Below are positions 19,959 through 44,810 of a stretch of DNA of 64,000 nt, piece after piece. The stretch covers positions 1-64,000 of IMG/VR virus record IMGVR_UViG_3300015177_000008; one strand, 5' to 3'. Under the pieces are notes generated by a model. That model made no database searches. It worked only from the letters and a program-made list of their open reading frames with translations, and was not told the origin of the DNA. The stretch's first letter is position 1. Each line of letters begins with the position of its first letter. This DNA is from a virus (taxonomy: Duplodnaviria > Heunggongvirae > Uroviricota > Caudoviricetes). The translations under genes were made by a program, and so were the position numbers.

Positions 19959-21533
19959 TCACTCGTTCTCTTGAGTAGATGAGTCCCCATTCCCTCGGGG
20001 TTGATCTTGCCCGCTTTCTTGGGCTGCACCACGATCATAAGTAAGTACTGACTTATTTTCAAGGGTATTTAGATCATTTTTTGGCGGAAAATTCAAGAGA
20101 TCTTTATCAAATTCCTTTTTCATCGCCTCAGTAATGTTCGGGAAAATCTTCTCAATAAGCATTTCCATCTGGTGACGACGTACAGAGCCCGGTGCCTGAA
20201 GTAATGACAGTTTCTCGGCAACAGAAAATTCATCTGTAAGGCCACGAATATCGAAACTTTCTGGATACGCAATTAAAGAGTGGTCTTCGTCCAGATCTAC
20301 CCCCATCCATTTCGCAACCAGTAGCATGATTTGGCGTTCAGCCCTTTCCAGACGCTCTGCTTTTGTGACAAGCAAGCTATTTACACGCTGGAAGTCATAC
20401 ATTTTTGCGGCACCAGATGAGTTATCGATTCCCTGTGCGTTGTCCTGCTTCGTTCGCTCACCAGCTACACCAACTGAATGGTAGATTTCGTTAATCACCG
20501 TCTTAATCGTAGTGATGATCATCTGAGCTTGTTTCGGGTCTGGTGACAGATAAAACGGCTGGTTTCCACCTTCAGAATCGTAGGTGAAGACTCGCTTTGT
20601 GCCCATTTCAAGCACTTTAGTGTGGTTTTCATCACCAGGTAAAAGCGACTGTACCGGTATAGCCAACTGGCTAAATGTCTGATCCTGAATAATGGCATCA
20701 AGGTTTGACAGATAGTTTGCAACCGCACGATCAAGATAAGCGATATCATCGATCAACGATGGGCTGAAATACGGTGATTCACTTTCTCCAATACAATCAA
20801 CAGGAAACACAGGAACTACGCCGAGATTATGCTCACCGCTATCCTCTAAAATAACTTTTGCCTGACGGCGACCTGCTCCACCAGCGCCCTTCTTCACTTC
20901 CTCACGGAACAGATACCACTCGTTTTGTGTCCACAGACGATAACGTTGGTATTCCTGACCTGTAGAAGTAAAAGGATCTGCGTCATCACGAGCGACCTCC
21001 ACAATTAACGCCCACAACATATTCCCGTCGTCGTCCCATGCCACATCCAGCATTTGCTGAGGTGAAATCCAGTAGGCGTAGGCGCGAGCATCTTTCTTTT
21101 TCTCGTCAGCTACTGACTCAACATCACCACTCATCGTGCTATCGACAACAACCCATATGCGACCGTAAATAGACGACTGCAAATCAATAGCGGCCATAAA
21201 TGAGTCAATAGAGGCATTCTGGCGAGTCGCACGTTTCCAGAAATTGCGGATCTGCTCTGGTGCCTCTTCGATATTTCTATGAATGTCTTCTTTAAAGAGA
21301 TATTTGTTGATGAGGTTTACCACCTCACGAGTGTGGTTGAAGCGATAAGCACGCTCAACTCGCTCCTTAAACTCCTGATCTCCCTCTTTAAAGTAACGAA
21401 AGATATTGTCTGTAAACCAACCACGCCCGCCAGCGTAAGTGCTGGCGAGGAAGTCCCAATGTTCTTTTTTCTTTTCGTATTCCGGGTGGCGTCGCGCCAC
21501 CAGATCCTTAATTTGTTTATCGTTCAATTCCAT
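19959..21533 (-). CDS. portal protein
   Basis: 524 aa, position immediately after TerL, acidic C-terminus. Confidence 0.8.
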   Translation of the reverse strand: MELNDKQIKDLVARRHPEYEKKKEHWDFLASTYAGGRGWFTDNIFRYFKEGDQEFKERVERAYRFNHTREVVNLINKYLFKEDIHRNIEEAPEQIRNFWKRATRQNASIDSFMAAIDLQSSIYGRIWVVVDSTMSGDVESVADEKKKDARAYAYWISPQQMLDVAWDDDGNMLWALIVEVARDDADPFTSTGQEYQRYRLWTQNEWYLFREEVKKGAGGAGRRQAKVILEDSGEHNLGVVPVFPVDCIGESESPYFSPSLIDDIAYLDRAVANYLSNLDAIIQDQTFSQLAIPVQSLLPGDENHTKVLEMGTKRVFTYDSEGGNQPFYLSPDPKQAQMIITTIKTVINEIYHSVGVAGERTKQDNAQGIDNSSGAAKMYDFQRVNSLLVTKAERLERAERQIMLLVAKWMGVDLDEDHSLIAYPESFDIRGLTDEFSVAEKLSLLQAPGSVRRHQMEMLIEKIFPNITEAMKKEFDKDLLNFPPKNDLNTLENKSVLTYDRGAAQESGQDQPRGNGDSSTQENE

Positions 21534-21559: not shown

Positions 21560-22816
21560 CTATCGAGAACCACCAAGAATAACACGGTTTTTGACTGGAT
21601 ACCTACGATGTACTGGATAGCCCAATGCGTCTGCACTATGCTCAATGCCACCTGTCTTATCCATATCTCGTGTTCCAGGCTTGTAGATGACTTTTTCCAG
21701 TGAATCAATCAAATGCTTGCACTTCGGATCGATATACAACCGGATATCTCCAGATGCGGTCATCAGCATTCGGTTAACAGCATTAACACGATCCGCAATT
21801 GGCGGGTGCTTTTTCGAATAATCGACACGTAAGAATCCCTTCTCTTTGAAAATGTCGACGTCAGACTCCCCGCGAGCATGTTGGCGATAAGCACCTGCCG
21901 GATCTGGAAATACCGTTATCTGTGATTTCCAGCGCCAGAAGCGTCTCTCAAGCTCATCACAAACCTCTGCCGTGTTAGAGGAAAAGAGCACCAATTCATC
22001 AATTGCCCATAGCTCACCATTTGGCTGAGGTTGCAAAATTACTGAAGACATCGGGTCAATGTTGAAGTCCTGCCCTACCCATATAGGCAACCGAGGGTTG
22101 AACTGAAGCGGTTTTACATGCACGTTACGATCGAACGGGTAGTAAACGCGCCCGGACATGTTCTCAAAGCTCGCCAGGTACTCCTGAGCGAACGATTTCG
22201 GGTCCATATCGTTCTTAGCAGCTTCAATTTCCGCCGTAGGCACAAACGGAGAATCGGCAGTTACAAACTGCCAGCTCTTCCACTGTCCCTTTCTTTGCAG
22301 CTCTACGTTCTGGCCTATAGTCCACAGTTTGTGAAATTCCGAGAAGCCTTTTGGCGTACCAATGATCAGTGCACCGCCGCGTGTCGATGAAAGAGTAGGT
22401 CGTAACACCTTGTACCAGGTGTCAGCCTTCATATCCTGAAATTCATCAAGCACTACAAAATGCAACGCTACGCCGCGCAGAGTGTCAGGCTTATCAGCAC
22501 CTTTGAGGGCGATCTCCGAACCGTTCTTCAACACGATTGTCATCGTGGTGTCGTTCTTTTTCCTAACCCACTTACGAGGCAGAACTTCCTGTAGATCGTC
22601 CCACAAAATCTGGCGAGCCATCTGGTAAGTAGGAGCGACATACCAGACCCTTTGCTTTTTTTCCTTTGCCGCCGCACGAATAATAGTGGAGATCGACAAC
22701 CGGGATTTTCCCCAGCGTCGACCAGCACAAACAACTTTAAATCGATGCGGAGACTGGAAGACTTTCATCTGTCCAGAATGCAGTTGCACAAGACTGAGCG
22801 AGGACGGGATTGCCAT
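21560..22816 (-). CDS. terminase large subunit
   Basis: Walker A GRRWGKS near N-terminus, Walker B VVLDEF, C-terminal nuclease-like acidic motifs. Confidence 0.85.
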   Translation of the reverse strand: MAIPSSLSLVQLHSGQMKVFQSPHRFKVVCAGRRWGKSRLSISTIIRAAAKEKKQRVWYVAPTYQMARQILWDDLQEVLPRKWVRKKNDTTMTIVLKNGSEIALKGADKPDTLRGVALHFVVLDEFQDMKADTWYKVLRPTLSSTRGGALIIGTPKGFSEFHKLWTIGQNVELQRKGQWKSWQFVTADSPFVPTAEIEAAKNDMDPKSFAQEYLASFENMSGRVYYPFDRNVHVKPLQFNPRLPIWVGQDFNIDPMSSVILQPQPNGELWAIDELVLFSSNTAEVCDELERRFWRWKSQITVFPDPAGAYRQHARGESDVDIFKEKGFLRVDYSKKHPPIADRVNAVNRMLMTASGDIRLYIDPKCKHLIDSLEKVIYKPGTRDMDKTGGIEHSADALGYPVHRRYPVKNRVILGGSR

Positions 22817-23448
22817 TATTCGTCCTCCCCTTCACTTCCATCATCTGTCGCATCAAATTCGCTTAGAGCTTCTTCTTCCAACGTCTCAAGCAATTCGTCA
22901 TCGATGATTTCAGGCTCGTCGTCTTCCTGACGTAATTTCGCCACCTGGGAAGGCGTAAGCTCACCAAATACCAGGTTCGGAATTTCTTCCTCGTCATTTT
23001 CCGCATGATCCATGCCCAATGCTTTGGACGAAACTTCAAAGCATTTTGCAAGGGTATTACTGGCTCTCTGTAAGCTCTTGAGAGAATCCTCAATCGCCCC
23101 TAAAGGCTTACCCTCACGTTTGGCCGTAGTGACTTCGACCATCACCATCTGCCCCAACGCATACGCCCAGCCGTCATAACGTGTACGACGTTCTTCTATC
23201 TTTTCCGCACGAGCTTTAGCGCGAAGCTCTGCGTCAGATTTAAGAGACTCACGAACCATCTTCCCAACAGAGTCCGCGCCTTTCTCTAATCCTCGCTTTT
23301 TGAAATGTCTGGAGAGTGTTTCACGACGAATGCCGTACTCTTCCTCCAGCTTTGAGAGTGTATATTCGCCTGACGTCCATTTGGCTTCAGCTTCGGCCCA
23401 CTCCGCTGGTGTCAGGCGAGTTTTTACCTCGTCTTTTTCGACCGTCAT
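22816..23448 (-). CDS. terminase small subunit
   Basis: 210 aa, N-terminal HTH-like segment, acidic C-terminus, stop overlaps TerL start. Confidence 0.6.
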   Translation of the reverse strand: MTVEKDEVKTRLTPAEWAEAEAKWTSGEYTLSKLEEEYGIRRETLSRHFKKRGLEKGADSVGKMVRESLKSDAELRAKARAEKIEERRTRYDGWAYALGQMVMVEVTTAKREGKPLGAIEDSLKSLQRASNTLAKCFEVSSKALGMDHAENDEEEIPNLVFGELTPSQVAKLRQEDDEPEIIDDELLETLEEEALSEFDATDDGSEGEDE

Positions 23449-23544
23449 AGATCCCTCTAAAACACACAGAGCGCGTCCATGCGCTCTAAAACAACTTGTT
23501 TACTGCGTATGCTAACCAACTTGTTTTCTGGGGTGTTTAATTAG

Positions 23545-23641
23545 GTCTGGGCATGTCTTACTAAGCCTGCTTCCGTATATATTTAATAAGTTACTTATTA
23601 TTTATATATACAGAAGCAGGTCTTTAAATAAGCTCCCAGAC
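23545..23641. repeat. ~97-bp composite imperfect palindrome upstream of terS (cos/pac or late-operon regulatory site candidate)
   Basis: Outer arms GGTCTGGG..CCCAGACC, inner arms CCTGCTTCCGTATATAT..ATATATACAGAAGCAGG, central AATAAGT/ACTTATT; shares an exact 22-mer with 57455-57476. Confidence 0.5.
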
Positions 23642-23644
23642 CGA

Positions 23645-23911
23645 TTACATCACCAGTAACTTCGCTTTGGCTCGACCTAAAGTGGTTAACCCAAGAGTCC
23701 GGCGGTGATAGCGATTGTCACTGCGTTGGCGCGTATGCCCTTTCTCCACCAGCCCCTTTTTTATCAGAGCGCGAATTGAGAACTGGATACTTTGCTTTGT
23801 TGTCTTGTACGGCAAAACTTCAAGCAATTCGTCCAGATCAAGTAGATGACCTCGCTCATAACCGAGATTGAGCGTTTTGATGATGTCCTTTTGTTTGTCG
23901 GTTAACGTCAT
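23645..23911 (-). CDS. small winged-helix-like DNA-binding protein (hypothetical)
   Basis: 88 aa, basic, helix-rich; last gene of the ParB operon before the palindrome. Confidence 0.35.
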   Translation of the reverse strand: MTLTDKQKDIIKTLNLGYERGHLLDLDELLEVLPYKTTKQSIQFSIRALIKKGLVEKGHTRQRSDNRYHRRTLGLTTLGRAKAKLLVM

Positions 23912-23920
23912 GGCAAATCC

Positions 23921-24811
23921 TTATGCCGGTAAAGCAATTTCTAACGGTTTATCCAAAGGTTGTTTGTCGAATGCCAGCAGTGGCAGCGTGTCAGGCAGTC
24001 GACGGCCAAAGTCAGGGTTTCGGTACACACCATACAACGGAGACGTAAAGCTCAGGTTGTGAATGTCCTTGAGCAGCTTCACAATGCTGGCCTCGTCCAC
24101 CAGACTGTCGGCAATGTCCTGAATCGTCGTGCCACGATTCCGCCCAGCTTTTGCCAGGGAACTGTTCTTGTGGTAGTCCGCCACCAGATCACGCAGTGCA
24201 CGGCGACGACGAGACTCGCTCATTGCGAACAACTCTTTGACGATCGCCTCGTTATCACCCGGGTCAGAACGGAAATGGCGCTGGAATACACGCAGTGCAC
24301 TTTCATAGCTCTTCGGTCGCTCAGGGCGGATGAACTTAAACCCTGCTTTCATGGCGAAGGGATTGTATTTGCTCATCGAGGACTGGATCTCAATGATTGG
24401 CCGGTCATGCATCCTGCTAACCAGGTTAATCATTCGATAAGAGACGCCTACGCCACGATACTGAGTATCCACAACTGAGCGACTGATCACCGCAAAGTTG
24501 TTATTCACGTACCGACCCCAGTACTGGTTAGCCACGGTGGTATTAGTGGTTGGTTTCAACTTAGGAAACATGCGGTGGCGAGGTGCCAACAGTAGTTTCG
24601 GGTAAGCCATAACCACGACGCCCACCAGACGGTCATCAAGTTCGCAGCGATAGTAAGTTGGCGCGAAAGGTTTGCCGTCTGTTTTGTAGTGAAGCGACTT
24701 AAGAGCGTGCCAGTCCTCTACAGTTCCCTTTGTAACAGTCATTCGCTCCAGAAAGTCCAGATGACGCGGAAACTCTTCAGGGCGGTAGCGTTTAATGATG
24801 ATGTCCGTCAT
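23921..24811 (-). CDS. GNAT-fold acetyl/acyltransferase domain protein with ~120-aa C-terminal extension
   Basis: GNAT motif A (VVDTQYRGVGVSYRMINL) followed by beta5-like NPFAMKAGFKFI; 4-nt overlap with upstream ATPase gene. Confidence 0.5.
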   Translation of the reverse strand: MTDIIIKRYRPEEFPRHLDFLERMTVTKGTVEDWHALKSLHYKTDGKPFAPTYYRCELDDRLVGVVVMAYPKLLLAPRHRMFPKLKPTTNTTVANQYWGRYVNNNFAVISRSVVDTQYRGVGVSYRMINLVSRMHDRPIIEIQSSMSKYNPFAMKAGFKFIRPERPKSYESALRVFQRHFRSDPGDNEAIVKELFAMSESRRRRALRDLVADYHKNSSLAKAGRNRGTTIQDIADSLVDEASIVKLLKDIHNLSFTSPLYGVYRNPDFGRRLPDTLPLLAFDKQPLDKPLEIALPA

Positions 24812-25473
24812 AAATGAACCTCATCATGACTACCATTGTGATATTCCACCTTCACGCGTTCTTTGTAGTGCTTGGTGATCTGCATATCCGGGCGCAGCGC
24901 GTTCTTCAGGTCTTCGTGAGTCGTCGCCACCATTACCGTCGCACCAACCTTTCGAGCGGCACGCTGGAGGTTAGATGCCACAACCTGAGCGGTTACACGG
25001 TCTAGAACAGCACCGAACTCGTCAGCAGCCCACACTTTAGCGCCTGACTCAATCAGTTTGGCAATCTTGAGACGATATTTCTGGCCGTCTGACATTTCAG
25101 AAGGCTTGCGAACAAACAGATATGCATCGTTCAGACCAGCCATAGATAACAACCCAAGCGCATCACTGGTCGTTTTGCCCAACTGATCGATGACGTTAAC
25201 CTCATTATCGAAGGTAAAATCATCGATGGAGGCTACAGAAAGCCCTTCATCCTTCATCTGGCGTTGCAACTCGCGCAGCACAACGGATTTGCCAGAACCG
25301 GATTGGCCGGTGATGTACACCACATCGCCCTGCTTCACTTCCAGCTCCAGATTGTCGTAAAGCGTCCACTCTTTTTCGTCCAGGCCAAGCCCGAACGACT
25401 CAGCGATTTCCAACGTGCGCGTGGTTTTATTTACGCGTGTCTGAAACGATACGTTGATGATGTATTTGCTCAT
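24808..25473 (-). CDS. stand-alone ABC-type ATPase
   Basis: Walker A GQSGSGKS, signature-like MSDGQKYRL, Walker B VWAADEF, H-loop ATTHEDL; no transmembrane domain. Confidence 0.6.
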   Translation of the reverse strand: MSKYIINVSFQTRVNKTTRTLEIAESFGLGLDEKEWTLYDNLELEVKQGDVVYITGQSGSGKSVVLRELQRQMKDEGLSVASIDDFTFDNEVNVIDQLGKTTSDALGLLSMAGLNDAYLFVRKPSEMSDGQKYRLKIAKLIESGAKVWAADEFGAVLDRVTAQVVASNLQRAARKVGATVMVATTHEDLKNALRPDMQITKHYKERVKVEYHNGSHDEVHL

Positions 25474-26138
25474 GCAGCCATCTCCCCGGAAGAGATCTTC
25501 TCCGCATATGCCACAAATGCGTCTACCCCGCTTTCTCCCGTCATTTCTTCCATGTGGGCAAGCAAATCACCAACAACAATGGCAGAGCCAGCAGGGAGCG
25601 TTTTAAAGCCCAATACGTCGACAACACGTACTTCTTCCGCTGCAACTTCACGACTGATCTCGGTGTGTTCATCCTTCTGTCGTTTAGTTTCTTCGCCAAG
25701 ATCGATAACTAGCGAATCGGTGTCCATTTCTTCTGTCATACTGCCAACGAGAACATTCAACTCACGCTCTTCAAAGCCGAAAACCTCGATATCGTCCAGA
25801 ACAAGCGACTCAAGCTCTTTCTGTAGCTTAATTGCATCGTAATCAATGCTGGCAAGTCGGTTATCTTCAAGGCGCTTCGCACGAACCTCGTCATCACTGA
25901 GATCATCGCGAACAATAACCGGTACGCGCTCAAGTCCAGCAAAAATTGCAGCCTCACGGCGGCCGTGGCCAGTAATAATTACGTCGTTCTTATCGACCGT
26001 AATTGGCTGGTCAAATCCGCGCTTTTTAATGGCTGCGGCCAGATCTCGGATCTGCTGTTCATCATGCTTTTTGGCATTCATCTCATAGGGAATAAGATCT
26101 GCCGGGTCGCGATATACGATTTCAAACTTTTTGGTCAT
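25470..26138 (-). CDS. ParB-like nuclease domain (ParB/Srx N-terminal domain) protein
   Basis: ITGHGRREAA motif; start moved to ATG at 26136-26138, which overlaps the stop of the upstream gene (TAATG). Confidence 0.6.
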   Translation of the reverse strand: MTKKFEIVYRDPADLIPYEMNAKKHDEQQIRDLAAAIKKRGFDQPITVDKNDVIITGHGRREAAIFAGLERVPVIVRDDLSDDEVRAKRLEDNRLASIDYDAIKLQKELESLVLDDIEVFGFEERELNVLVGSMTEEMDTDSLVIDLGEETKRQKDEHTEISREVAAEEVRVVDVLGFKTLPAGSAIVVGDLLAHMEEMTGESGVDAFVAYAEKISSGEMAA

Positions 26139-26836
26139 TACATACGCTCCTTGTAGTAGTCGACCAGCCACACCAGAGCCTCACCAGCGTTCTCCATTTC
26201 ATTACCGGTGTTAATAGCCTGCTCTTTGATGATGTTTTTTATGGTTTCTGCAACACGATCTGACGCATCGAAAGTTACTTTGAAGCGCATGGTCTGATGT
26301 TCCGCACCCACACGTTCGGTTTTCTCTCGTTTGTCGGTATCGACAGGCTCATCACTACCACGAGACAACGCCTCCAGTGCTTCAAGGTCGATTGCCGCCT
26401 CTTTTGCTAAAACCATCGAGATTTCGTCGTCATACGGGGCGATTTCAGACAGTTGATAGTCAAGTTCTGACTGAATTTCTTCAATGAAGCGTTGCAATGC
26501 GATTTGGTCGTCTTCACCGTATCGCTCGTTGTCCACCAGTGACATCTGTTTAGCTACGACATCGCTAATTTTGCCCACAGAAAGCACCGGAACCGTTGAA
26601 ATTCCTTGCTCAATAGCAGCACGCCAGCGATGTTCGCCGCCGAGGATTTCAAAAAATCCATCTTCAAGTTCACGAGCCAAAATTGGCTTAAAAAAGCCCA
26701 ATTTTTCGATAGAACCTTTCAGTTTTTCAAAATTCTGCGCACCAACCGAATTGGTGTTCCAGGTATTCGGGCGAAGGTTGGCAACATCAACCTGCAAAAT
26801 CGTGATTTTTACATCCATTTTATTGCTACAATCCAC
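26138..26836 (-). CDS. ParB-like nuclease domain protein (second paralogue)
   Basis: ILGGEHRWRAA motif; true start probably the internal Met at about 26818. Confidence 0.6.
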   Translation of the reverse strand: MDCSNKMDVKITILQVDVANLRPNTWNTNSVGAQNFEKLKGSIEKLGFFKPILARELEDGFFEILGGEHRWRAAIEQGISTVPVLSVGKISDVVAKQMSLVDNERYGEDDQIALQRFIEEIQSELDYQLSEIAPYDDEISMVLAKEAAIDLEALEALSRGSDEPVDTDKREKTERVGAEHQTMRFKVTFDASDRVAETIKNIIKEQAINTGNEMENAGEALVWLVDYYKERM

Positions 26837-26900
26837 TAAGTAATCACTTACTTATTATAATAGCCAAATAACATACAAAAGGCACTAAGGAAAGAGGTTT

Positions 26901-28460
26901 ATGACTGTTCGGATTGTATCTAACGCAGTAAATGCGCTTATTTCTGGCGCAGATGACAAGGTAAAGCAACTGGTGCAGCAAATGTTGAGCTACGAAGTCG
27001 AGACTGGCGACTGGAAGGGCACAAGCACGATGTTCAACTGGAGTAAAAACTCGTTCCCTGCTGGCTTTGCCAAGCCTGTAGCGGCGAACTTGAACAAGGC
27101 GGGCATCAAATGTGTTCATATCCGCAAAGACAAAGCCCCGGCGCTTGGAAAGCCAAATCCGGCGGTTAACCCATTCCCATACAATCCTGATTATGCATAT
27201 CAGGATCAGGCTGTGGAAACACTAGTTCGCGAGGGAATGATGATTGCCCAGATCGCTACTGGTGGTGGGAAATCTAACGTTGCCTGCAAAGCAGCTGCAC
27301 GTATCGGTCGAATGACATTATTTTTAACAACCCGCTCTGTTCTGATGTTTCAAATGGCCGAAAACTTCCAGAGATCCATCGACTACCGCGCCGAAAATGG
27401 CGAACCGTGGTTAAAGGACCAAAAGGTTGGAGTCATTGGCTCGGGTGAGTTCCAGGTATCACGACATATCAACGTCGCTACAGTTCAAACTCTTGCAAGT
27501 TTCCTCGAAGAACCACCACGCGATGCAACACCAGATAAGAAAAGCTACCACCTCAAACGTCGGGAGTTGGTGAAACGCTTCCTTTCAAGTGTCTCTCTTC
27601 TTATTCTGGAAGAGGCGCATGAGTCTTCAGGCTCAAATTTCTATGACATCGCCAGATTATGTGTGAACGCAGACTATCGTCTGGCGCTTACAGCCACGCC
27701 GTTCATGAAGGATTCGACGGAAGCCAACATGCGCCTGATGGCGGTGGCCGGGCGAATTGAAATTAAAGTCACAGAAAAGTACCTGATTGATAGAGGCATT
27801 CTGGCAAAACCATACTTCCTTTATCATAAAGTTGCCTACAAGCCGGACGAGGCCAGAATCAAGGCAGAACTTGCCAACAAATACCTCAATTTTAGAGTAG
27901 GTATGAGCACTGCCTACCAAAAGGCTTATCAGTTGGGGATCGTGTATAATTTGGGACGTAATGAGGCCATTGTTCGCGAAGCATTGCTCTATAAGCAACA
28001 TTCTCTCAATTGTATGACTCTGGTTCGTCTTAAACGCCACGGGCAAATCCTGATGGAAATGATGAAAGAGTCCGGCCTTAGAGTTGACTTCATTTATGGG
28101 GAATCGAACCAGTCGACAAGGCAAGCAAAGCTGAACAGTTTAGCGTCTGGCGACATAGATGTTTTAATAGGCTCGACTATTCTGGATGTCGGTGTTGATG
28201 TGCCAAGCGTTGGTGCGGTCATTCTGGCTGGTGGTGGGAAAGCAGAAGTTGAAATGAGGCAGCGTGTCGGTCGTGGCTTACGAGCCAAGAAGAATCAGGC
28301 AAACGTGTGTTTTATCACTGATTTCATTGACACTAGCAACAAATACCTGTTGTCTCACTCTTATGAGCGAAAACACATCATCGACACCACACCTGGCTTT
28401 GCGGAAGGTGTATTGCCTGTTGATGGCGCATTCGATTTTGGAATTCTGAAACGAGATTAG
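26901..28460 (+). CDS. SF2 DEAD/DEAH-box helicase (ResIII-like plus helicase C-terminal domain)
   Basis: Walker A ATGGGKS, DExH ILEEAH, motif III LTATP, motif VI QRVGRGLR; TATAAT -10 at about 26856 overlapped by a TAAGTAA-tcac-TTACTTA palindrome. Confidence 0.8.
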   Translation: MTVRIVSNAVNALISGADDKVKQLVQQMLSYEVETGDWKGTSTMFNWSKNSFPAGFAKPVAANLNKAGIKCVHIRKDKAPALGKPNPAVNPFPYNPDYAYQDQAVETLVREGMMIAQIATGGGKSNVACKAAARIGRMTLFLTTRSVLMFQMAENFQRSIDYRAENGEPWLKDQKVGVIGSGEFQVSRHINVATVQTLASFLEEPPRDATPDKKSYHLKRRELVKRFLSSVSLLILEEAHESSGSNFYDIARLCVNADYRLALTATPFMKDSTEANMRLMAVAGRIEIKVTEKYLIDRGILAKPYFLYHKVAYKPDEARIKAELANKYLNFRVGMSTAYQKAYQLGIVYNLGRNEAIVREALLYKQHSLNCMTLVRLKRHGQILMEMMKESGLRVDFIYGESNQSTRQAKLNSLASGDIDVLIGSTILDVGVDVPSVGAVILAGGGKAEVEMRQRVGRGLRAKKNQANVCFITDFIDTSNKYLLSHSYERKHIIDTTPGFAEGVLPVDGAFDFGILKRD

Positions 28461-29513: not shown

Positions 29514-30647
29514 ATGCGTCAATTTATAAAAACGTGTGACCTAAGAAATATAATAGATGATATTGCATGTGATGAAAAATTATCCTTGATAAAACCGGCA
29601 GGTATATCAACGAATAATAATATAAACCTTTATTATTTACAATTAAAGAAAACTTCTCAACAGCACCCCATCATTATAAAAAAGAATGGGCCTAGAACGA
29701 AATCCTCTAACGGTCTGGTGACGAATCCGTATCCAATATTGACAGTCTTTAAAATGCTGGATGAAATAAACAATCAGCTTGGCGACCAAGAGGTTATTCC
29801 TGAAATTGTAGAAGCTTCAACCTGGGCAGGTGCAACCATTAACCTGACTGACGACGAAAATCTGAAAGAGTTCTTTAGCGAAAACGAGTTGAGAAAGAAA
29901 GTCGGCTATTCCTTTTCATTCAAAAGTAAAAAATCTATAGAACATTTTCTTCGTGTGTTAATTCAATATATAGAATCAGGGATTATCTCACAAGTAGAGA
30001 GCAGAAAGTTCTTTAGAACAAACAAAAAAAATGTCAAATTAAAAGAGATTTACAATCTTGCTCTAAAATCACAACATTCAAGAGGGCAAAACAGTGCTGA
30101 TGCTCTCAAATCACCTTTCTCGTTGAATAAGAAAGAGATTCATGCAGTCTCAGCCAAAGCAGAAGACAACGTAACTCAAGAAGAAATCAGCTACGACCTC
30201 CAGAAAGAAGAAGTTGAGGAATATATAGAGGGCGAAACAAGATTAATCCAGTCGCAACATCGTAGCCGCGTATCCGGGTTAAGGAATGACGTTCTGGCAA
30301 ACGCAGACTACAGGTGTCAACTATGTTGCAGAACGATGTCGGAAATATACGGCAAGGAAATTGACGGTAAAGAAACGAAAACGCTGCTACACGCTCACCA
30401 CATCATCCCACTTTCACAAGGCGAAGGTGCACGAAGCGTGAACCCAAAAACAGATCTGATTGCCGTCTGCCCTAGCTGTCACGCAATACTTCACATCAGC
30501 GGCAACAAGGAAGCTATACCACGCGAGCGATTTTATGAATTGCGCCAAAAAATTGTCGGCAACCTTCAAAAACAAGAAAACATAGACATAATGAACCTTG
30601 CATGTGATGAAATTAGCAAAAAAGAGAAGAACGAAAACGCCAATTAA
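29514..30647 (+). CDS. HNH endonuclease domain protein with unknown N-terminal domain
   Basis: C-terminal CxxC...HAHHIIP...N...CPSCH HNH/zinc-finger motif; GGAGG RBS; AT-rich. Confidence 0.7.
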   Translation: MRQFIKTCDLRNIIDDIACDEKLSLIKPAGISTNNNINLYYLQLKKTSQQHPIIIKKNGPRTKSSNGLVTNPYPILTVFKMLDEINNQLGDQEVIPEIVEASTWAGATINLTDDENLKEFFSENELRKKVGYSFSFKSKKSIEHFLRVLIQYIESGIISQVESRKFFRTNKKNVKLKEIYNLALKSQHSRGQNSADALKSPFSLNKKEIHAVSAKAEDNVTQEEISYDLQKEEVEEYIEGETRLIQSQHRSRVSGLRNDVLANADYRCQLCCRTMSEIYGKEIDGKETKTLLHAHHIIPLSQGEGARSVNPKTDLIAVCPSCHAILHISGNKEAIPRERFYELRQKIVGNLQKQENIDIMNLACDEISKKEKNENAN

Positions 30648-40992: not shown

Positions 40993-43026
40993 TTACTTAA
41001 CTTGGTGGCCTGGTTTAGCACCGGCATCCGGGCTTAGCAGGAAAATATCTTTCCCGCCAGGACCGGCAGCCATCACCATGCCTTCGGAGATGCCAAAGCG
41101 CATTTTACGCGGAGCCAGGTTAGCCACCATAATGGTGTGACGACCAATCAGTGCCTGTGGGTCTGGATAAGCAGAACGGATGCCTGAGAAGACATTACGC
41201 TTTTCACCACCGAGATCCAGTGTCAGACGCAGCAGTTTGTCAGAACCTTCTACAAACTCTGCATTTTCAATCAGCGCCACGCGCAGGTCAACTTTGGCGA
41301 AGTCGTCAAAGGTGATAGTTTCCTGAATCGGGTCGTCAGCCAGTGGGCCAGTTACCGGTACGGCTGTGGCTTTCACTTCTTCTTTGGATGCTTCCACCAG
41401 TGCTTCAACCTGCTTCATATCGATGCGGTTATACAGTGCCTTGAACGGATTCACTTTATGGCCCAGCAGCGGTTGCTGGATACCATCCCAGGTCAGTTCC
41501 GTATTGAGGAATGCTTCCGCACGTTCAGTCAGTTTCGGCAGTACCGGTTTCAGGTACGTCATCAGCACGCGGAACAGGTTAATGCCCATAGAGCAAATCG
41601 CTTGCAGATCGGCATCGCGGCCTTCCTGCTTCGCCACCACCCACGGAGCCTGTTCATCGACATAGCGGTTAGCCAGGTCAGCCAATGCCATGATTTCACG
41701 AATCGCTTTACCAAATTCGCGGCTTTCCCATGCTTCACCAATCACTTCAGCGGCATCAGTAAAGGTTTTGTACAGTTGCGGGTCAGCCAGTTCGCCTGCC
41801 AGCACACCGTCAAAACGCTTATTGATAAAGCCCGCGTTACGGGACGCCAGATTCACCACTTTGTTCACGATATCGGCATTCACGCGCTGAACGAAATCCT
41901 CCAGGTTGAGATCGATATCATCAATGCGCGAAGAGAGTTTCGCAGTGTAGTAGTAACGCAGGCTGTCAGCGTCAAAATGATTCAGCCAGGTGCTGGCTTT
42001 AATAAAGGTGCCGCGAGACTTGGACATCTTCGCACCGTTCACCGTCACATAGCCATGAACAAACAGGTTGGTCGGCTTGCGGAAGTTGCTGCCTTCCAGC
42101 ATGGCAGGCCAGAACAGGCTGTGGAAGTAAACGATATCTTTACCGATGAAGTGGTACAGCTCGGCGGTGGAGTCTTTCTTCCAGTATTCGTCGAAGCTGG
42201 TAGTGTCGCCGCGTTTGTCGCACAGATTCTTGAAGGAACCCATGTAGCCAATCGGCGCGTCCAGCCAGACGTAGAAATATTTGCCCGGCGCGTTCGGAAT
42301 TTCAAAACCGAAGTAAGGCGCATCGCGGGAGATATCCCACTGTTGCAGGCCGGATTCAAACCATTCCTGCATTTTGTTCGCCACCTGCTCCTGCAACGCG
42401 CCGCTGCGGGTCCATGCCTGCAACATTTCGCTGAAAGAGGGCAGATCAAAGAAGAAGTGTTCGGAATCACGCATTACCGGGGTAGCGCCAGAAACCACCG
42501 ATTTCGGCTCGATCAATTCAGTCGGGCTATATGTTGCGCCGCAGACTTCACAGTTATCGCCGTATTGATCTGGCGCTTTACATTTCGGGCAGGTGCCTTT
42601 CACAAAACGATCCGGCAGGAACATGCCTTTTTCCGGGTCGTACAACTGAGAGATAGTGCGGTTTTTAATAAAACCGTTCTCTTTCAGGCGAGTATAGATA
42701 AGTTCTGACAACTGGCGGTTCTCTTCGCTGTGCGTCGAGTGATAGTTGTCATAGCTGATGTTAAAGCCTGCGAAATCAGTCTGGTGTTCCTGACTCATTT
42801 CGCCAATCATCTGCTCCGGTGTGATACCAAGCTGCTGTGCTTTCAGCATGATTGGCGTACCGTGGGCATCGTCGGCACAGATGAAATTAACCTCGTGGCC
42901 GCGCATTCGCTGGTAACGAACCCAGACATCAGCCTGGATGTGCTCCAGCATATGGCCGAGGTGGATTGAGCCGTTAGCGTACGGCAGCGCGCACGTCACC
43001 AGAATTTTCTTCGCGACTTGGGTCAT
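40993..43026 (-). CDS. metG: methionine--tRNA ligase
   Basis: Near-identical to my recollection of E. coli MetG ([30 protein letters not shown]); start set at ATG 43024-43026 (677 aa) rather than the upstream TTG of the ORF track. Confidence 0.95.
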
Positions 43027-43183
43027 AGTAGGCATTACTTCTTTGTAGTGAAAAGGGGCTTGATAGTAACAAAATGGCCTTATGTCTGCCATGTGATAAC
43101 AGCATTTCTCATAAATGATTAAATGTCGTAGCTGGAGTACACTACAAGGCGACAATTGCGCAAATTAAAATAAAGGAGACGGG

Positions 43184-44284
43184 ATGAGCGAGTCCAAATC
43201 GCCGGATGCCCTAAGAGCAATGGTAGCCGGTACGTTGGCTAATTTTCAGCACCCAACCCTGAAACACAACCTGACTACGCTTAAAGCGTTACACCATGTT
43301 GCGTTGATGGATGACACACTGCATGTCGAACTAATCATGCCTTTCGTGTGGAATAAGCCTTTTGAAGACCTGAAAGAGCAATGTAGTGGTGATCTGCTCC
43401 GTATCACTGGCGCAAAGGCTATCGACTGGAAGCTGTCGTACAATATTGCCACGCTTAAGCGCGTCAAAAACCAACCAGGCATTAATGGCGTTAAGAACAT
43501 TATCGCCGTCAGCTCAGGCAAGGGCGGCGTGGGTAAATCCTCCACAGCGGTAAACCTGGCACTGGCTTTGGCTGCTGAAGGTGCGAAAGTTGGTATTTTG
43601 GATGCCGATATCTATGGTCCATCAATTCCAACCATGCTGGGCGCGGAAAACCAACGTCCAACCTCACCGGACGGTACTCACATGTCACCTATCATGTCTC
43701 ATGGCCTGGCAACCAACTCTATTGGTTATCTGGTCACCGACGACAATGCAATGGTGTGGCGTGGACCGATGGCCAGCAAGGCGCTGATGCAGATGTTGCA
43801 GGAAACACTGTGGCCTGATCTGGACTATCTCGTTCTCGATATGCCACCGGGCACTGGTGATATTCAATTGACGCTGGCGCAGAACATTCCTGTAACTGGT
43901 GCGGTTGTGGTAACTACGCCGCAAGACATCGCGCTGATCGATGCGAAGAAAGGCATTGTGATGTTCGAAAAAGTCGAAGTGCCGGTACTGGGTATCGTCG
44001 AAAACATGAGTGTGCATATTTGCAGTAACTGCGGTCATCACGAACCAATTTTTGGCACCGGTGGCGCACAGAAACTGGCCGAGAAATACAACACGCAGTT
44101 GTTAGGCCAAATGCCACTTCATATCTCTCTTCGTGAAGATCTGGATAACGGAACACCAACCGTTATTAGTCGTCCAGATAGCGAATTTACGGCTATTTAT
44201 CGTGACCTCGCAGATCGCGTTGCTGCCCAAATGTATTGGCAAGGTGAAGTAATACCTGGCGAAATCGCATTCCGCGCAGTGTGA
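43184..44284 (+). CDS. apbC: Fe-S cluster carrier P-loop ATPase Mrp/ApbC
   Basis: Deviant Walker A SGKGGVGKSS, CxxC; divergent from metG as in E. coli. Confidence 0.95.
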   Translation: MSESKSPDALRAMVAGTLANFQHPTLKHNLTTLKALHHVALMDDTLHVELIMPFVWNKPFEDLKEQCSGDLLRITGAKAIDWKLSYNIATLKRVKNQPGINGVKNIIAVSSGKGGVGKSSTAVNLALALAAEGAKVGILDADIYGPSIPTMLGAENQRPTSPDGTHMSPIMSHGLATNSIGYLVTDDNAMVWRGPMASKALMQMLQETLWPDLDYLVLDMPPGTGDIQLTLAQNIPVTGAVVVTTPQDIALIDAKKGIVMFEKVEVPVLGIVENMSVHICSNCGHHEPIFGTGGAQKLAEKYNTQLLGQMPLHISLREDLDNGTPTVISRPDSEFTAIYRDLADRVAAQMYWQGEVIPGEIAFRAV

Positions 44285-44321
44285 TAAAAAGGCGGTGCAA
44301 TGCACCGCCTAATCAGTTCTC

Positions 44322-44633
44322 CTACATCACGGGACAATCATCAAACTCGCCACTTCTTACGTCGTTGATAATGTGAGTGATCACACCAAACACGGCATTG
44401 CTGCCCGTGCATCCATCGTCATCCTTTGGCAATGCTTCCTTCTTACCGGTTCTTAAATCCTCCAGATGCTGACGTGGATACTTCCGGTATCTTTTTACGC
44501 GATATTCCTCATCCCGAGCACATACAAGAAGAGATCCATCAACAGGAGTGAGTGAGGAATCGACCACCAGCAATGCACCCAGCAATATTCCCTCACGATG
44601 ATGGCTATCCGCCACAGAAGAAGGGAAGCCCAT
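44322..44633 (-). pseudogene. UmuD-like (S24 peptidase family) remnant lacking the catalytic Ser segment
   Basis: GFPSSVAD N-terminus and LLVVDSSLTPVDGSLLVCARDEEYRVKRY core resemble UmuD, but the SGDSM region is missing. Confidence 0.35.
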
Positions 44634-44810
44634 AGCATTTTACCTTATGCATACAGAACAAGCTCAATGTATGCAACAGCGCAATGTCTGGCGGGTAAAA
44701 AAAGACCTTCTTTCCGAAATCCAAGATAGGGAGATCGAATTCGTTAATGAGAAATGTAGTACACATGATTGACCACCTCCAGAGGAGGTGGCCGTTACTA
44801 ATTTATTTAA

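What the first reader, a model, noticed from the sequence alone, without database searches (positions are those of the whole stretch)
23921..26836. Translationally coupled operon of two ParB-like proteins, an ABC-type ATPase and a GNAT protein directly upstream of terS
Four genes with overlapping stop/start codons (TAATG at 26138, 4-nt overlaps at 25470/25473 and 24808/24811) head the minus-strand transcription unit that continues into terS and terL. The domain set (two ParB/Srx N-terminal domains with GxxRxxA motifs, a complete soluble ABC ATPase, a GNAT acyltransferase with a C-terminal extension) is not a standard lambdoid late-region module and does not match any named packaging, partition or defence system I can recall. 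Possible roles: DNA hypermodification before packaging (a Mom-like acyltransferase chemistry), a nuclease accessory to terminase (as HNH proteins are in HK97-type phages), or a moron-encoded defence or anti-defence module.
Basis: partly seen in the sequence, partly recalled or inferred. Interest (0 to 1): 0.75.

Follow-up and report, generated by a model that had tools for sequence, protein, structure and literature searches.

The report
Phage ParB–ABC–GNAT putative DNA-acylation cassette
The four overlapping genes are real and form a conserved core cassette of SSU5-type phage-plasmids, whose ATPase and acyltransferase belong to a widespread virus family already predicted, but never shown, to put an acyl mark on phage DNA.

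Summary
Four minus-strand genes (two ParB/Srx-domain proteins, a complete soluble ABC ATPase, a GNAT-fold protein) overlap as described. The context was misread. The element is an E. coli SSU5-like phage-plasmid, not a lambdoid prophage. A fifth conserved gene (88-aa wHTH) and a 196-bp spacer separate the cassette from the putative terS.

The ABC and GNAT genes are a split form of a family that is usually one fused protein (COG2401, "ABC-type ATPase fused to acetyltransferase"). It occurs in tailed viruses of Archaea, Proteobacteria, Actinobacteria, Firmicutes and Bacteroidetes. It recurs next to ParB and next to terminase genes. In other lineages it is followed by a dedicated formyltransferase, by PanD plus a CoA-transferase, or by an ASCH protein.

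Iyer and Aravind predicted this GNAT–ABC family to acylate a DNA base, and no experiment was found. The best reading is ParB-assisted, ATP-dependent acylation of progeny DNA before packaging, probably for restriction evasion (confidence about 0.5). Partition and moron readings are disfavoured. A terminase-accessory role is not excluded.

This is a member of a known predicted kind, untested, in a tractable E. coli host.

The parts
26138..26836 (-). ParB1: a ParB/Srx N-terminal-domain protein of 226 aa (from ATG 26818) or 232 aa (from GTG 26836). It carries the motifs GEHRWRA and DNERYGED.
   Evidence: Pfam ParB_N E 3e-13 and phrog_723 E 2e-79. Conserved as the first gene of the cassette in SSU5-like loci. 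Gordonia phage Mariokart gp1, next to a fused ABC-GNAT, belongs to the same PHROG.
25470..26138 (-). ParB2: a 222-aa ParB/Srx N-terminal-domain protein with an invariant GHGR motif. It has an acidic linker and a small C-terminal helical bundle, and no recognisable HTH DNA-binding domain.
   Evidence: Pfam ParB_N and phrog_930 E 1e-112. The next-best PHROGs include phrog_498, the N-terminus of ParB-methyltransferase fusions (E 5e-32). AF2 pLDDT 78; Foldseek hits to Noc, ParB-CDP and KorB cover the N-domain only. The PDB profile hits only residues ~5-93. Single ParBs beside fused ABC-GNAT in Pmp13, L159 and L162 match this paralogue best.
24808..25473 (-). Soluble ABC-type ATPase of 221 aa with intact Walker A, signature, Walker B-Glu, D-loop and H-loop. 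It is the N-terminal half of the COG2401 family.
   Evidence: Pfam ABC_tran E 6e-13; phrog_293 E 6e-59; phrog_11143 E 6e-24. The same motifs are invariant in the fused homologues. No adjacent permease gene.
23921..24811 (-). GNAT-fold acyltransferase-like protein of 296 aa. The GNAT core spans about residues 20-165, with motif A R119-x-x-G122-x-S124, followed by a conserved C-terminal extension. It is the C-terminal half of the COG2401 family.
23645..23911 (-). Fifth cassette gene: an 88-aa putative winged-helix DNA-binding protein, starting 9 nt after the GNAT stop.
   Evidence: phrog_900 E 2e-45. Weak Sta1/Lrs14/LexA wHTH hits. Found directly after the GNAT gene in nearly all SSU5-like loci that cover this position.
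23449..23644 (.). Spacer between the cassette and the putative terS. It holds an AT-rich 16-nt inverted repeat (23576-23608), two AAACAAGTTG(G/T)TT palindromes (23489-23530) and a G+C hairpin (23467-23488).
   Evidence: The SSU5 and Cyrano GenBank records are both linearised at a point equal to window ~23583. The spacer is poorly conserved among relatives.
22816..23448 (-). Putative small terminase subunit (210 aa), with an N-terminal HTH-like segment and an acidic tail. Its stop overlaps the TerL start by 1 nt.
   Evidence: Assigned by position only. phrog_867 'DNA binding domain' E 2e-100; no Pfam hit.
21560..22816 (-). Large terminase subunit (418 aa), followed by the portal gene (19959-21533).
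   Evidence: Pfam Terminase_6N and Terminase_6C; PHROG terminase large subunit; PGAP annotation.
26901..28460 (+). Divergently transcribed UvsW-like DEAD/ResIII helicase. It is a conserved neighbour of the cassette in the SSU5-like lineage only.
   Evidence: Pfam ResIII, DEAD and Helicase_C. Synteny.
26837..26900 (.). Short divergent intergenic region. It has a perfect TATAAT (26859-26854, minus strand) without a good -35 element.
   Evidence: Read. The promoter scan did not call it, and promoter-like sites are not enriched (12 found versus 9.5 expected).

Best explanation
The cassette is a late-expressed DNA-modification module.

Proposed roles:
- The GNAT protein is the catalyst. It would transfer an acyl group, most simply acetyl from acetyl-CoA, to an exocyclic amine of a base in double-stranded phage DNA. 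An aminoacyl-tRNA donor, as Mom uses, is not excluded.
- The ABC ATPase works with the GNAT protein as one enzyme, since the two are a single polypeptide in most lineages. It would use ATP-driven dimerisation to clamp or open the duplex and present the base, much as the ATPase domain of TmcA does for ac4C in tRNA.
- The two ParB/Srx proteins have a nucleotide-binding N-domain and a small C-terminal helical domain, with no HTH. They would load on DNA and recruit or activate the enzyme, as ParB does for ParB-dependent phage thymine dioxygenases.
- The 88-aa wHTH protein would supply regulation or sequence targeting.

Because the cassette sits next to the terminase genes, progeny DNA would be marked shortly before or during packaging and so be protected from host nucleases on the next infection.

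Shown here: gene structure, folds, family membership, fusions, synteny and core status.

Inferred: that DNA is the substrate, the chemistry, the timing and the biological benefit.
For: 1. ABC and GNAT act as one enzyme.
- Distant homologues are ABC(N-terminal)-GNAT(C-terminal) fusions with the same motifs.
- hhalign gives 100% probability (E 7e-46) between the fused families and 94% to the window's GNAT family.

2. Links to DNA.
- The adjacent ParB-domain partner recurs in unrelated phages: Pasteurella Pmp13, Gordonia Sourvirus phages, Jace, Arthrobacter EastWest, Streptococcus 315.4 and MismyG, and loci L159 and L162.
- There is a ParB-ABC-GNAT triple fusion (L116) and a PolB-ABC-GNAT fusion (L092, P0204).
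- ParB2-type domains resemble the N-termini of ParB-DNA-methyltransferase fusions (phrog_498 and PADLOC MTase_II).

3. Small-molecule partners that suit a modification pathway rather than a packaging motor.
- A dedicated Formyl_trans_N protein lies directly downstream in Gordonia, Burkholderia, Pseudomonas and Porphyromonas phages.
- All 14 tblastn hits of that formyltransferase in the phage collection lie directly after an ABC-GNAT gene.
- Jace has PanD plus a CoA-transferase III.
- Prophage 315.4 has an ASCH protein. ASCH YqfB hydrolyses N4-acylcytosines (PMC6972931).

4. In Mu-like phiE255 and Komp_PAO1_1 the pair follows the tail-fibre genes, where Mu carries mom (the Mu map is from memory).

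5. Among viral structure models, Mom is the second-best match to the GNAT model.

6. Precedents.
- Phage ParB lacking a DNA-binding domain activates a DNA dioxygenase on dsDNA (PMC13229309).
- Mom is a GNAT that modifies dsDNA (PMC13219725).

7. Prior prediction of exactly this family.
- PMC7824862, section 3.4.7, names Tenacibaculum phage pT24.
- pT24 is hit by the fused homologues (E 7e-10 and 6e-34).

8. The cassette is core and syntenic, not a moron.
Against: - No experiment on any member was found, and no modified base is reported for SSU5-like phages.
- The window's cassette has no formyltransferase, PanD or ASCH partner, so pathway clues from other lineages may not transfer.
- The most consistent neighbour across lineages is the terminase, which equally fits a packaging role.
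- The Mom paper reports that simple acyl groups on N6-adenine are chemically unstable (PMC13219725).
- The ParB CTP-motif arginines are only partly kept: GHGRRE in ParB2 and GEHRWR in ParB1.
Confidence: 0.5

Rival explanations
1. Terminase accessory. The ParB-like proteins act as nucleases or as pac/cos-site binding factors, and the ABC-GNAT enzyme regulates or assists initiation of DNA packaging. This would parallel the role of HNH proteins with HK97-type terminases.
For: - ABC-GNAT lies within 0-3 genes of TerL or terS in SSU5-like phages, Pmp13, Gordonia Sourvirus phages, prophage 315.4, SL25, L116 and L162. In many archaeal contigs it lies immediately after TerL.
- In Gordonia phage AnClar, gene 1 is an HNH endonuclease where its relatives have ParB.
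- The spacer next to the cassette may hold the genome terminus.
Against: - The module also occurs away from terminase genes: pT24, Jace, EastWest, phiE255, Komp_PAO1_1.
- It travels with a formyltransferase, PanD plus a CoA-transferase, or an ASCH protein. None of these has an obvious role in DNA cutting.
- A PolB fusion exists.
- A GNAT acyl-transfer site conserved from Archaea to Bacteria is hard to place in a packaging motor.
- DNA-modifying genes such as ParB-methylases and TET/JBP also cluster with terminases (PMC13229309: terminases in 19% of neighbourhoods).
Confidence: 0.15
2. The GNAT acylates something other than DNA. Candidates are a DNA-bound protein (nucleoid protein, terminase, portal), an RNA or tRNA, or a small molecule. 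ParB and the ABC ATPase would serve as scaffold or regulator.
For: - The best PDB matches are protein and small-molecule GNATs such as RimI, Naa10 and diamine acetyltransferases.
- ASCH proteins and TmcA act on RNA ac4C (PMC13219725).
- SSU5-like phages carry tRNA genes.
- ParB/Srx folds include small-molecule kinases (SerK, SbnI).
Against: - The recurrent ParB partner, the PolB fusion and the ParB-methylase-like N-domain all point to DNA.
- The family was found only in viral or proviral contexts in the samples examined.
Confidence: 0.2
3. Plasmid partition module of the phage-plasmid. This is how the two ParB copies were read in earlier comparative work (PMC7969092).
For: - Two ParB_N proteins and an ATPase sit on a low-copy plasmid prophage.
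- PGAP names one of them 'ParB/RepB/Spo0J family partition protein'.
Against: - The ATPase is ABC-type, not ParA.
- The ParBs lack an HTH DNA-binding domain.
- The same plasmid has a separate ParA/MipZ-like locus and RepB elsewhere.
- The identical cassette is present in an apparently chromosomally integrated prophage (L003), in phages such as nickie and the Rhizobium phages, in Gordonia phages and in archaeal proviruses.
- ABC-GNAT occurs without any ParB.
Confidence: 0.03
4. Defence or anti-defence cargo acting by a route other than marking phage DNA. Examples would be acylating or depleting a host immune signal, or excluding other phages.
For: - GNAT and ABC ATPase domains occur in defence systems, and there are weak PADLOC hits of the ABC protein to mad3, mad8 and PtuA.
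- In phiE255, Komp_PAO1_1 and the Porphyromonas phages the pair sits at a typical cargo position after the tail genes.
Against: - The PADLOC hits are generic P-loop matches, and the GNAT and ParB proteins hit no defence model.
- The cassette is core, syntenic at 40% identity, and as frequent as TerL in E. coli.
Confidence: 0.07

Closest known systems
GNAT-ABC ATPase family (COG2401 'ABC-type ATPase fused to a predicted acetyltransferase domain'; PHROGs 293, 886, 11143), predicted by Iyer, Zhang, Burroughs and Aravind (NAR 2013; restated in Viruses 2021, PMC7824862) to acylate a DNA nucleobase
   Same: Same family by sequence profile, motifs and architecture. The published example phage pT24 is hit by the fused homologues.
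   Different: In the window the enzyme is split into two overlapping genes. The GNAT half carries a long C-terminal extension. There are two ParB paralogues and a wHTH gene. The activity of the family is itself only a prediction. The 2013 paper could not be read here.
ParB-dependent phage thymine dioxygenases (5mYOX176 with ParB176; PNAS 2026, PMC13229309)
   Same: A phage ParB with a nucleotide-binding N-domain and a C-terminal domain but no DNA-binding domain, encoded beside a DNA-modifying enzyme and often near terminase genes.
   Different: The partner enzyme here is ABC-GNAT, not an Fe/2OG dioxygenase. No activation has been shown, and two ParBs are present.
Mom of phage Mu (GNAT superfamily; Gly-tRNA-dependent N6-adenine modification; PMC13219725)
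   Same: A GNAT fold in a late phage gene, and structural similarity in the viral model library. In Mu-like phiE255 the ABC-GNAT pair lies where Mu has mom.
   Different: No sequence-level membership in the Mom family. Mom needs no ATPase or ParB. The donor and target base here are unknown.
TmcA/NAT10 (ATPase domain plus GNAT; ATP- and acetyl-CoA-dependent N4-acetylation of cytidine in RNA)
   Same: The logic of coupling an NTPase to a GNAT in order to acylate an aromatic amine of a nucleobase within a folded nucleic acid.
   Different: The ATPase there is helicase-type, not ABC. The substrate is RNA. There is no homology beyond the GNAT fold. This comparison is an analogy only.
ParB-DNA methyltransferase fusions of phages (phrog_498; PADLOC MTase_II)
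   Same: The ParB2-type N-domain is closely similar to the N-terminus of these methylases (E 5e-32 to 6e-53). They also tend to sit by terminase genes.
   Different: No methyltransferase domain is present. The modifying enzyme would be ABC-GNAT, encoded in trans.
ParABS plasmid or chromosome partition
   Same: The ParB_N domain and the GxxRxxA motif.
   Different: No ParA, no HTH domain and no parS evidence. The cassette is present in non-plasmid viruses.

Membership tests
GNAT-ABC ATPase (COG2401) predicted DNA-base acyltransferase family | ABC-type ATPase domain with Walker A, signature, Walker B and H-loop | tested here: met
   Pfam ABC_tran E 6e-13. The motifs can be read in the sequence and are invariant in the fused homologues.
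GNAT-ABC ATPase (COG2401) predicted DNA-base acyltransferase family | GNAT-fold domain immediately C-terminal to, or encoded directly after, the ATPase | tested here: met
GNAT-ABC ATPase (COG2401) predicted DNA-base acyltransferase family | Sequence homology to the fused family, including the published example (Tenacibaculum phage pT24) | tested here: met
   The profile search retrieves the fusions. hhalign gives 100% and 94% probability. pT24 is hit at E 7e-10 and 6e-34.
GNAT-ABC ATPase (COG2401) predicted DNA-base acyltransferase family | Acyl transfer to a DNA base | not testable with these tools
   This is only a published prediction. No experimental paper was found.
Canonical ParB (ParABS, Noc, KorB CTPase clamps) | ParB/Srx N-terminal nucleotide-binding domain with GxxRxxA | tested here: met
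   Pfam ParB_N for both proteins. Foldseek matches to Noc, ParB-CDP and KorB.
Canonical ParB (ParABS, Noc, KorB CTPase clamps) | Central HTH DNA-binding domain | tested here: not met
   PDB profile and Foldseek matches stop after the N-domain, at about residues 5-135. The rest is an acidic linker plus a small helical bundle. Only ParB2 was modelled.
Canonical ParB (ParABS, Noc, KorB CTPase clamps) | Partner ParA ATPase and confinement to replicons that need segregation | tested here: not met
   The adjacent ATPase is ABC-type. A ParA/MipZ-like gene lies elsewhere on the plasmid. The cassette occurs in an apparently chromosomal prophage and in phages whose records give no sign of plasmid maintenance.
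ParB-activated DNA-modification pairs (5mYOX-ParB type) | ParB with N-terminal and C-terminal domains but no DNA-binding domain, encoded next to the modifying enzyme | tested here: met
   ParB2 model. ParB is adjacent to ABC-GNAT in at least 6 unrelated lineages.
ParB-activated DNA-modification pairs (5mYOX-ParB type) | ParB required for enzyme activity on dsDNA | not testable with these tools
   Requires in vivo or in vitro assays.
Mom family | Specific sequence or structure membership in the Mom clade of GNATs | tested here: inconclusive
Known anti-phage defence systems (PADLOC) | Significant match of the component proteins to defence-system models | tested here: not met
   Only generic P-loop hits for the ABC protein and methylase-N-terminus hits for the ParBs. 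Nothing for the GNAT protein.

The most novel reading that the evidence does not exclude
The cassette writes a DNA mark of a type not yet seen in any virus: an ATP-dependent, ParB-guided acylation of a base, with N4-acylcytosine as the most attractive candidate given the ASCH neighbour in streptococcal prophages. The mark would be placed on the genome of a phage-plasmid carried by about 4-5% of complete E. coli genomes, and the same enzyme family would do so in tailed viruses of both Archaea and Bacteria.
Probability: 0.35. Interest if true: 0.85.

Novelty: new member of a known kind. Interest (0 to 1): 0.5.

Why it matters
If the prediction is right, this would be only the second GNAT-type DNA-modifying system after Mom. 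It would be the first to couple an ABC ATPase and ParB proteins to base acylation.

The family reaches from Bathyarchaeota proviruses to streptococcal, actinobacterial and enterobacterial phages. A new base modification would therefore affect restriction evasion, sequencing artefacts and phage engineering widely.

SSU5-like phage-plasmids spread resistance genes in E. coli, Klebsiella and Salmonella and can be grown as phages. That gives an unusually tractable system for testing a 2013 computational prediction that is still open.

It would also correct the routine annotation of these genes as 'ABC transporter' and 'partition protein'.

Tried and rejected
- **Over-reaching HMMs.** My first iterated HMMs merged ABC and GNAT hits and wrongly labelled L103 and L111 as ParB fusions. 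Clean domain HMMs support only L116 as a ParB-ABC-GNAT fusion.
- **Proteins preceding ABC-GNAT.** I suspected that the 553-1035-aa proteins before ABC-GNAT in some archaeal contigs were TerL with inteins, or PolB. Pfam shows they are tail or baseplate proteins.
- **ParB2 homologue search.** The word-indexed search returned only orthologues, so it did not test the link to methylase fusions. That link rests on the PHROG and PADLOC hits.
- **Spacer repeats.** The repeats upstream of terS are not conserved beyond close relatives, so I do not build on them.
- **Promoter and terminator scan.** It shows no enrichment over shuffles.
- **Apparent GNAT-wHTH fusions.** The cases in L126, L133 and L138 are artefacts of my ORF caller.
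- **ASCH homologues.** None were found in the other loci.
- **Unavailable resources.** The afdb50 structure library was unavailable, and the key 2013 paper is not in the held library.
- **Literature.** Searches for COG2401, or for ABC-GNAT together with terminase, found no experimental work.
- **Genome scan.** The genome-contig scan used only a Walker-A pattern, so hits below L190 are generic ABC ATPases and were ignored.


Full report
**What is there**

- Gene 1 and gene 2 meet at TAATG. Gene 2 starts at the ATG at 26138, which is where its PHROG alignment begins.
- Genes 2/3 overlap by ATGA at 25473-25470, and genes 3/4 by ATGA at 24811-24808.

Both of the first two proteins hit Pfam ParB_N. 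They carry the GxxRxxA motifs GEHRWRA and GHGRREA, and they are 33% identical over their first ~115 residues.

The third protein is a complete soluble ABC ATPase. It has Walker A G56-K62-S63, signature S128-G130-Q131, Walker B D151-E152 and H186, and there is no permease gene nearby.

- A fifth gene, an 88-aa putative winged-helix protein at 23645-23911, starts 9 nt after the GNAT stop. It is conserved in nearly all SSU5-like relatives that cover this position.
- A 196-bp spacer containing an AT-rich inverted repeat, two palindromes and a hairpin separates the cassette from the next gene.
- That next gene is called terS on position alone.

**Where it comes from**

The region is 99.5% identical to Escherichia phage Cyrano and 85% identical to Salmonella phage SSU5. 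It occurs in 248 of 5,426 complete E. coli genomes, always on plasmids of about 110 kb.

So this is an SSU5-type phage-plasmid, not a lambdoid prophage. The window is collinear with plasmid NZ_JBTZOT010000003.

**Is it a cassette?**

Yes. In all 107 SSU5-like loci fetched, the order is: helicase (divergent), ParB, ParB, ABC, GNAT, wHTH, terS-like, TerL, portal, wherever the locus covers those positions.

The same order holds at 40-45% protein identity in:
- an Ectothiorhodospira contig and a 3.3-Mb metagenomic chromosome contig;
- Pseudomonas phage nickie and the Rhizobium phages.

In E. coli the cassette is as frequent as TerL plus portal: 248 versus 237 genomes. It is therefore core, not cargo.

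The tight ABC/GNAT overlap is not universal. Relatives carry an unrelated 84-aa or ~183-aa ORF, a thioredoxin, or several small genes at that junction.

**What the ABC and GNAT proteins are**

A profile of the GNAT family searched against 1.84 billion representative proteins gave 908 hits. Many are 450-500-aa proteins with an N-terminal ABC_tran domain and the GNAT-like domain at the C-terminus.

Other variants seen:
- an intein in the ABC domain (P0166);
- fusion to a family-B DNA polymerase (P0204; L092);
- fusion to an N-terminal ParB domain (L116).

JGI and GenBank already label members 'ABC-type ATPase with/fused to a predicted acetyltransferase domain', which is COG2401.

Profile-profile comparison ties together three groups:
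- the short fused forms of about 360-400 aa (phrog_11143);
- the long fused forms of about 480-510 aa, from Bathyarchaeota and Thaumarchaeota proviruses;
- the window's split pair.

The two fused groups align at 100% probability (E 7e-46). The short forms align to the window's GNAT family at 94%.

**Prior knowledge**

Iyer et al. [quoted passage not shown] They cite their NAR 2013 paper and name Tenacibaculum phage pT24.

pT24 is hit by the fused homologues across the ABC-GNAT junction. The window's genes therefore belong to that predicted family.

I could not read the 2013 paper and found no experimental study of any member. Pfeifer et al. 2021 read the duplicated ParB genes of related phage-plasmids as partition genes.

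**Context in other lineages**

*ParB.* A ParB_N protein lies directly upstream of ABC-GNAT, usually overlapping it, in:
- Pasteurella phage Pmp13;
- ten Gordonia Sourvirus-type phages;
- Jace and Arthrobacter phage EastWest;
- Streptococcus prophage 315.4 and its relatives, including MismyG, where PGAP names the trio ABC, GNAT and ParB/Srx;
- metagenomic loci L159 and L162.

Some of these ParBs are ParB2-like and some are ParB1-like. The ParB2 type closely resembles the N-terminus of ParB-DNA-methyltransferase fusions.

*Terminase.*
- The module sits just upstream of terS or TerL in SSU5-like phages, Pmp13, the Gordonia phages, 315.4, SL25, L116 and L162.
- In about twenty archaeal viral contigs the fused gene immediately follows TerL.
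- This is not universal. In pT24, Jace, EastWest, phiE255 and Komp_PAO1_1 no terminase gene is adjacent.

*Enzymes of small-molecule chemistry.*
- A Formyl_trans_N protein directly follows ABC-GNAT in Gordonia, Burkholderia (phiE255), Pseudomonas (Komp_PAO1_1) and Porphyromonas phages.
- All 14 tblastn hits of that formyltransferase in 50,697 phage records lie immediately after an ABC-GNAT gene.
- In Jace the next two genes are aspartate decarboxylase (PanD, E 2e-33) and a family-III CoA-transferase. This pair could make a beta-alanyl-CoA donor, which is an inference.
- In prophage 315.4 an ASCH-domain protein follows. The ASCH protein YqfB is an N4-acylcytosine amidohydrolase (PMC6972931). 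In 315.4 itself the GNAT half looks disrupted.

*Position in Mu-like phages.* In phiE255 and Komp_PAO1_1 the pair follows the tail-fibre genes. That is where Mu carries com-mom, according to the Mu map as I remember it.

**The ParB proteins**

The ParB2 model (pLDDT 78) has three parts:
- a confident ParB/Srx N-domain matching CTP-binding Noc, ParB and KorB;
- a low-confidence acidic helical linker;
- a confident C-terminal helical bundle.

No HTH domain is recognised. This is the architecture reported for the ParB that activates a phage thymine dioxygenase on dsDNA (PMC13229309).

The plasmid has its own ParA/MipZ-like locus and RepB elsewhere.

**Interpretation**

The fusions show that ABC and GNAT are one enzyme and that ParB is a frequent third component. 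Four things point to DNA as the substrate:
- the ParB partner;
- the PolB fusion;
- the methylase-like ParB subtype;
- the restriction of the family to viruses and proviruses in the samples examined.

The formyltransferase, the PanD/CoA-transferase pair and the ASCH neighbour point to acyl-group chemistry rather than to mechanics of packaging. Among viral structure models, Mom is the second-best match.

It is an ATP-dependent, ParB-assisted acylation of phage DNA made late, next to the packaging genes, to protect progeny DNA.

TmcA, an ATPase plus GNAT that makes ac4C in tRNA, is the closest mechanistic analogue (PMC13219725, discussion).

I put this reading at about 0.5, for four reasons:
- nothing has been tested;
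- the window's cassette lacks the auxiliary enzymes seen elsewhere;
- the GNAT resemblance to Mom is not specific;
- the terminase association fits a packaging-accessory role equally well.

The rivals:

| Reading | Confidence | Main evidence for or against |
|---|---|---|
| Packaging accessory | 0.15 | Terminase adjacency fits; auxiliary enzymes and non-terminase contexts do not |
| Non-DNA acyl acceptor | 0.20 | Best PDB matches are protein and small-molecule GNATs; ParB and PolB links argue against |
| Other defence or anti-defence role | 0.07 | Core status and the PADLOC result argue against |
| Plasmid partition | 0.03 | Contradicted by ATPase type, missing HTH, a separate Par locus, and presence in non-plasmid viruses |

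**Novelty**

The locus is a member, in split-gene form with two ParBs and a wHTH protein, of a family that is already described computationally and annotated by COG name. It is not a new kind.

Its value is that the family is still uncharacterised, is far more widespread than the published note suggests, and is present here in a cultivable E. coli phage-plasmid.

Noticed in passing
window 23449-23644: The spacer between the wHTH gene and the putative terS holds an AT-rich 16-nt inverted repeat (23576-23608), two AAACAAGTTG(G/T)TT palindromes (23489-23530) and a G+C hairpin (23467-23488). The GenBank records of SSU5 and Cyrano are both linearised at a point equal to window ~23583, inside the AT-rich palindrome. 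This could be cos/pac or only convention. The spacer is 41-576 bp long and poorly conserved in relatives.
   Followed up: partly
window 29514-30647: A 377-aa ORF with a C-terminal HNH motif lies in a low-GC (0.39) stretch. It is an insertion of about 1 kb relative to phage Cyrano, which has only 385 bp between the flanking genes. PGAP calls it an HNH endonuclease. It may be a homing or defence gene in a variable island.
   Followed up: partly
window 40993-49061: The phage-plasmid carries metG (methionine-tRNA ligase) and apbC, followed by a HumD fragment and a 1416-aa inverse-autotransporter (intimin/invasin-like) gene. It looks like a captured chromosomal segment plus an adhesin. metG and apbC being chromosomal neighbours in E. 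coli is from memory.
   Followed up: no
L018 7741-7995; L041 7453-8004; L127 6912-7220 (the junction equivalent to window 24808-24811): The ABC/GNAT gene junction is an insertion hot spot in relatives. It is a direct overlap in 21 loci, holds an 84-aa ORF in 32, a ~183-aa ORF in about 31, and a thioredoxin or other small genes in distant relatives.
   Followed up: yes
L168 1799-2446; L173 5044-5661; L175 4849-5322; L216 5580-6194: A distinct Formyl_trans_N protein (phrog_9240) always lies directly downstream of fused ABC-GNAT genes in Gordonia, Pseudomonas, Porphyromonas and Burkholderia phages. All 14 of its tblastn hits in the phage collection are in that position. SEA-PHAGES records call it 'tRNA-methyltransferase'.
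   Followed up: yes
L169 7125-8236 (Gordonia/Rhodococcus phage Jace gp87-gp88): ParB and ABC-GNAT are followed by aspartate decarboxylase (PanD) and a family-III CoA-transferase fragment. This suggests a phage-made beta-alanyl-CoA donor.
   Followed up: partly
L215 4001-6529 (Streptococcus pyogenes prophage 315.4): ParB, ABC and an apparently frameshifted GNAT remnant are followed by an ASCH-domain protein and then the terminase genes. ASCH proteins are known N4-acylcytosine amidohydrolases or ac4C erasers. No ASCH homologue was found in the other loci.
   Followed up: partly
L216 4301-6194 (Burkholderia phage phiE255) and L173 3786-5661 (Pseudomonas phage Komp_PAO1_1): In these Mu-like phages a tiny ORF, ABC-GNAT and the formyltransferase follow the tail-fibre assembly gene, the position of com-mom in Mu. 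The 54-aa gp28 has no Pfam hit.
   Followed up: partly
L180-L189 (Candidatus Bathyarchaeota archaeon A05DMB-2): One archaeal assembly carries fused ABC-GNAT genes on nine contigs, which implies many related proviruses or viral contigs binned with the genome.
   Followed up: no
L171 5873-8017 (same plasmid, outside the window): A TacA-GNAT (TacT-like) toxin-antitoxin pair sits next to the ParA/MipZ-like partition gene. This is a second, unrelated GNAT on the element.
   Followed up: no
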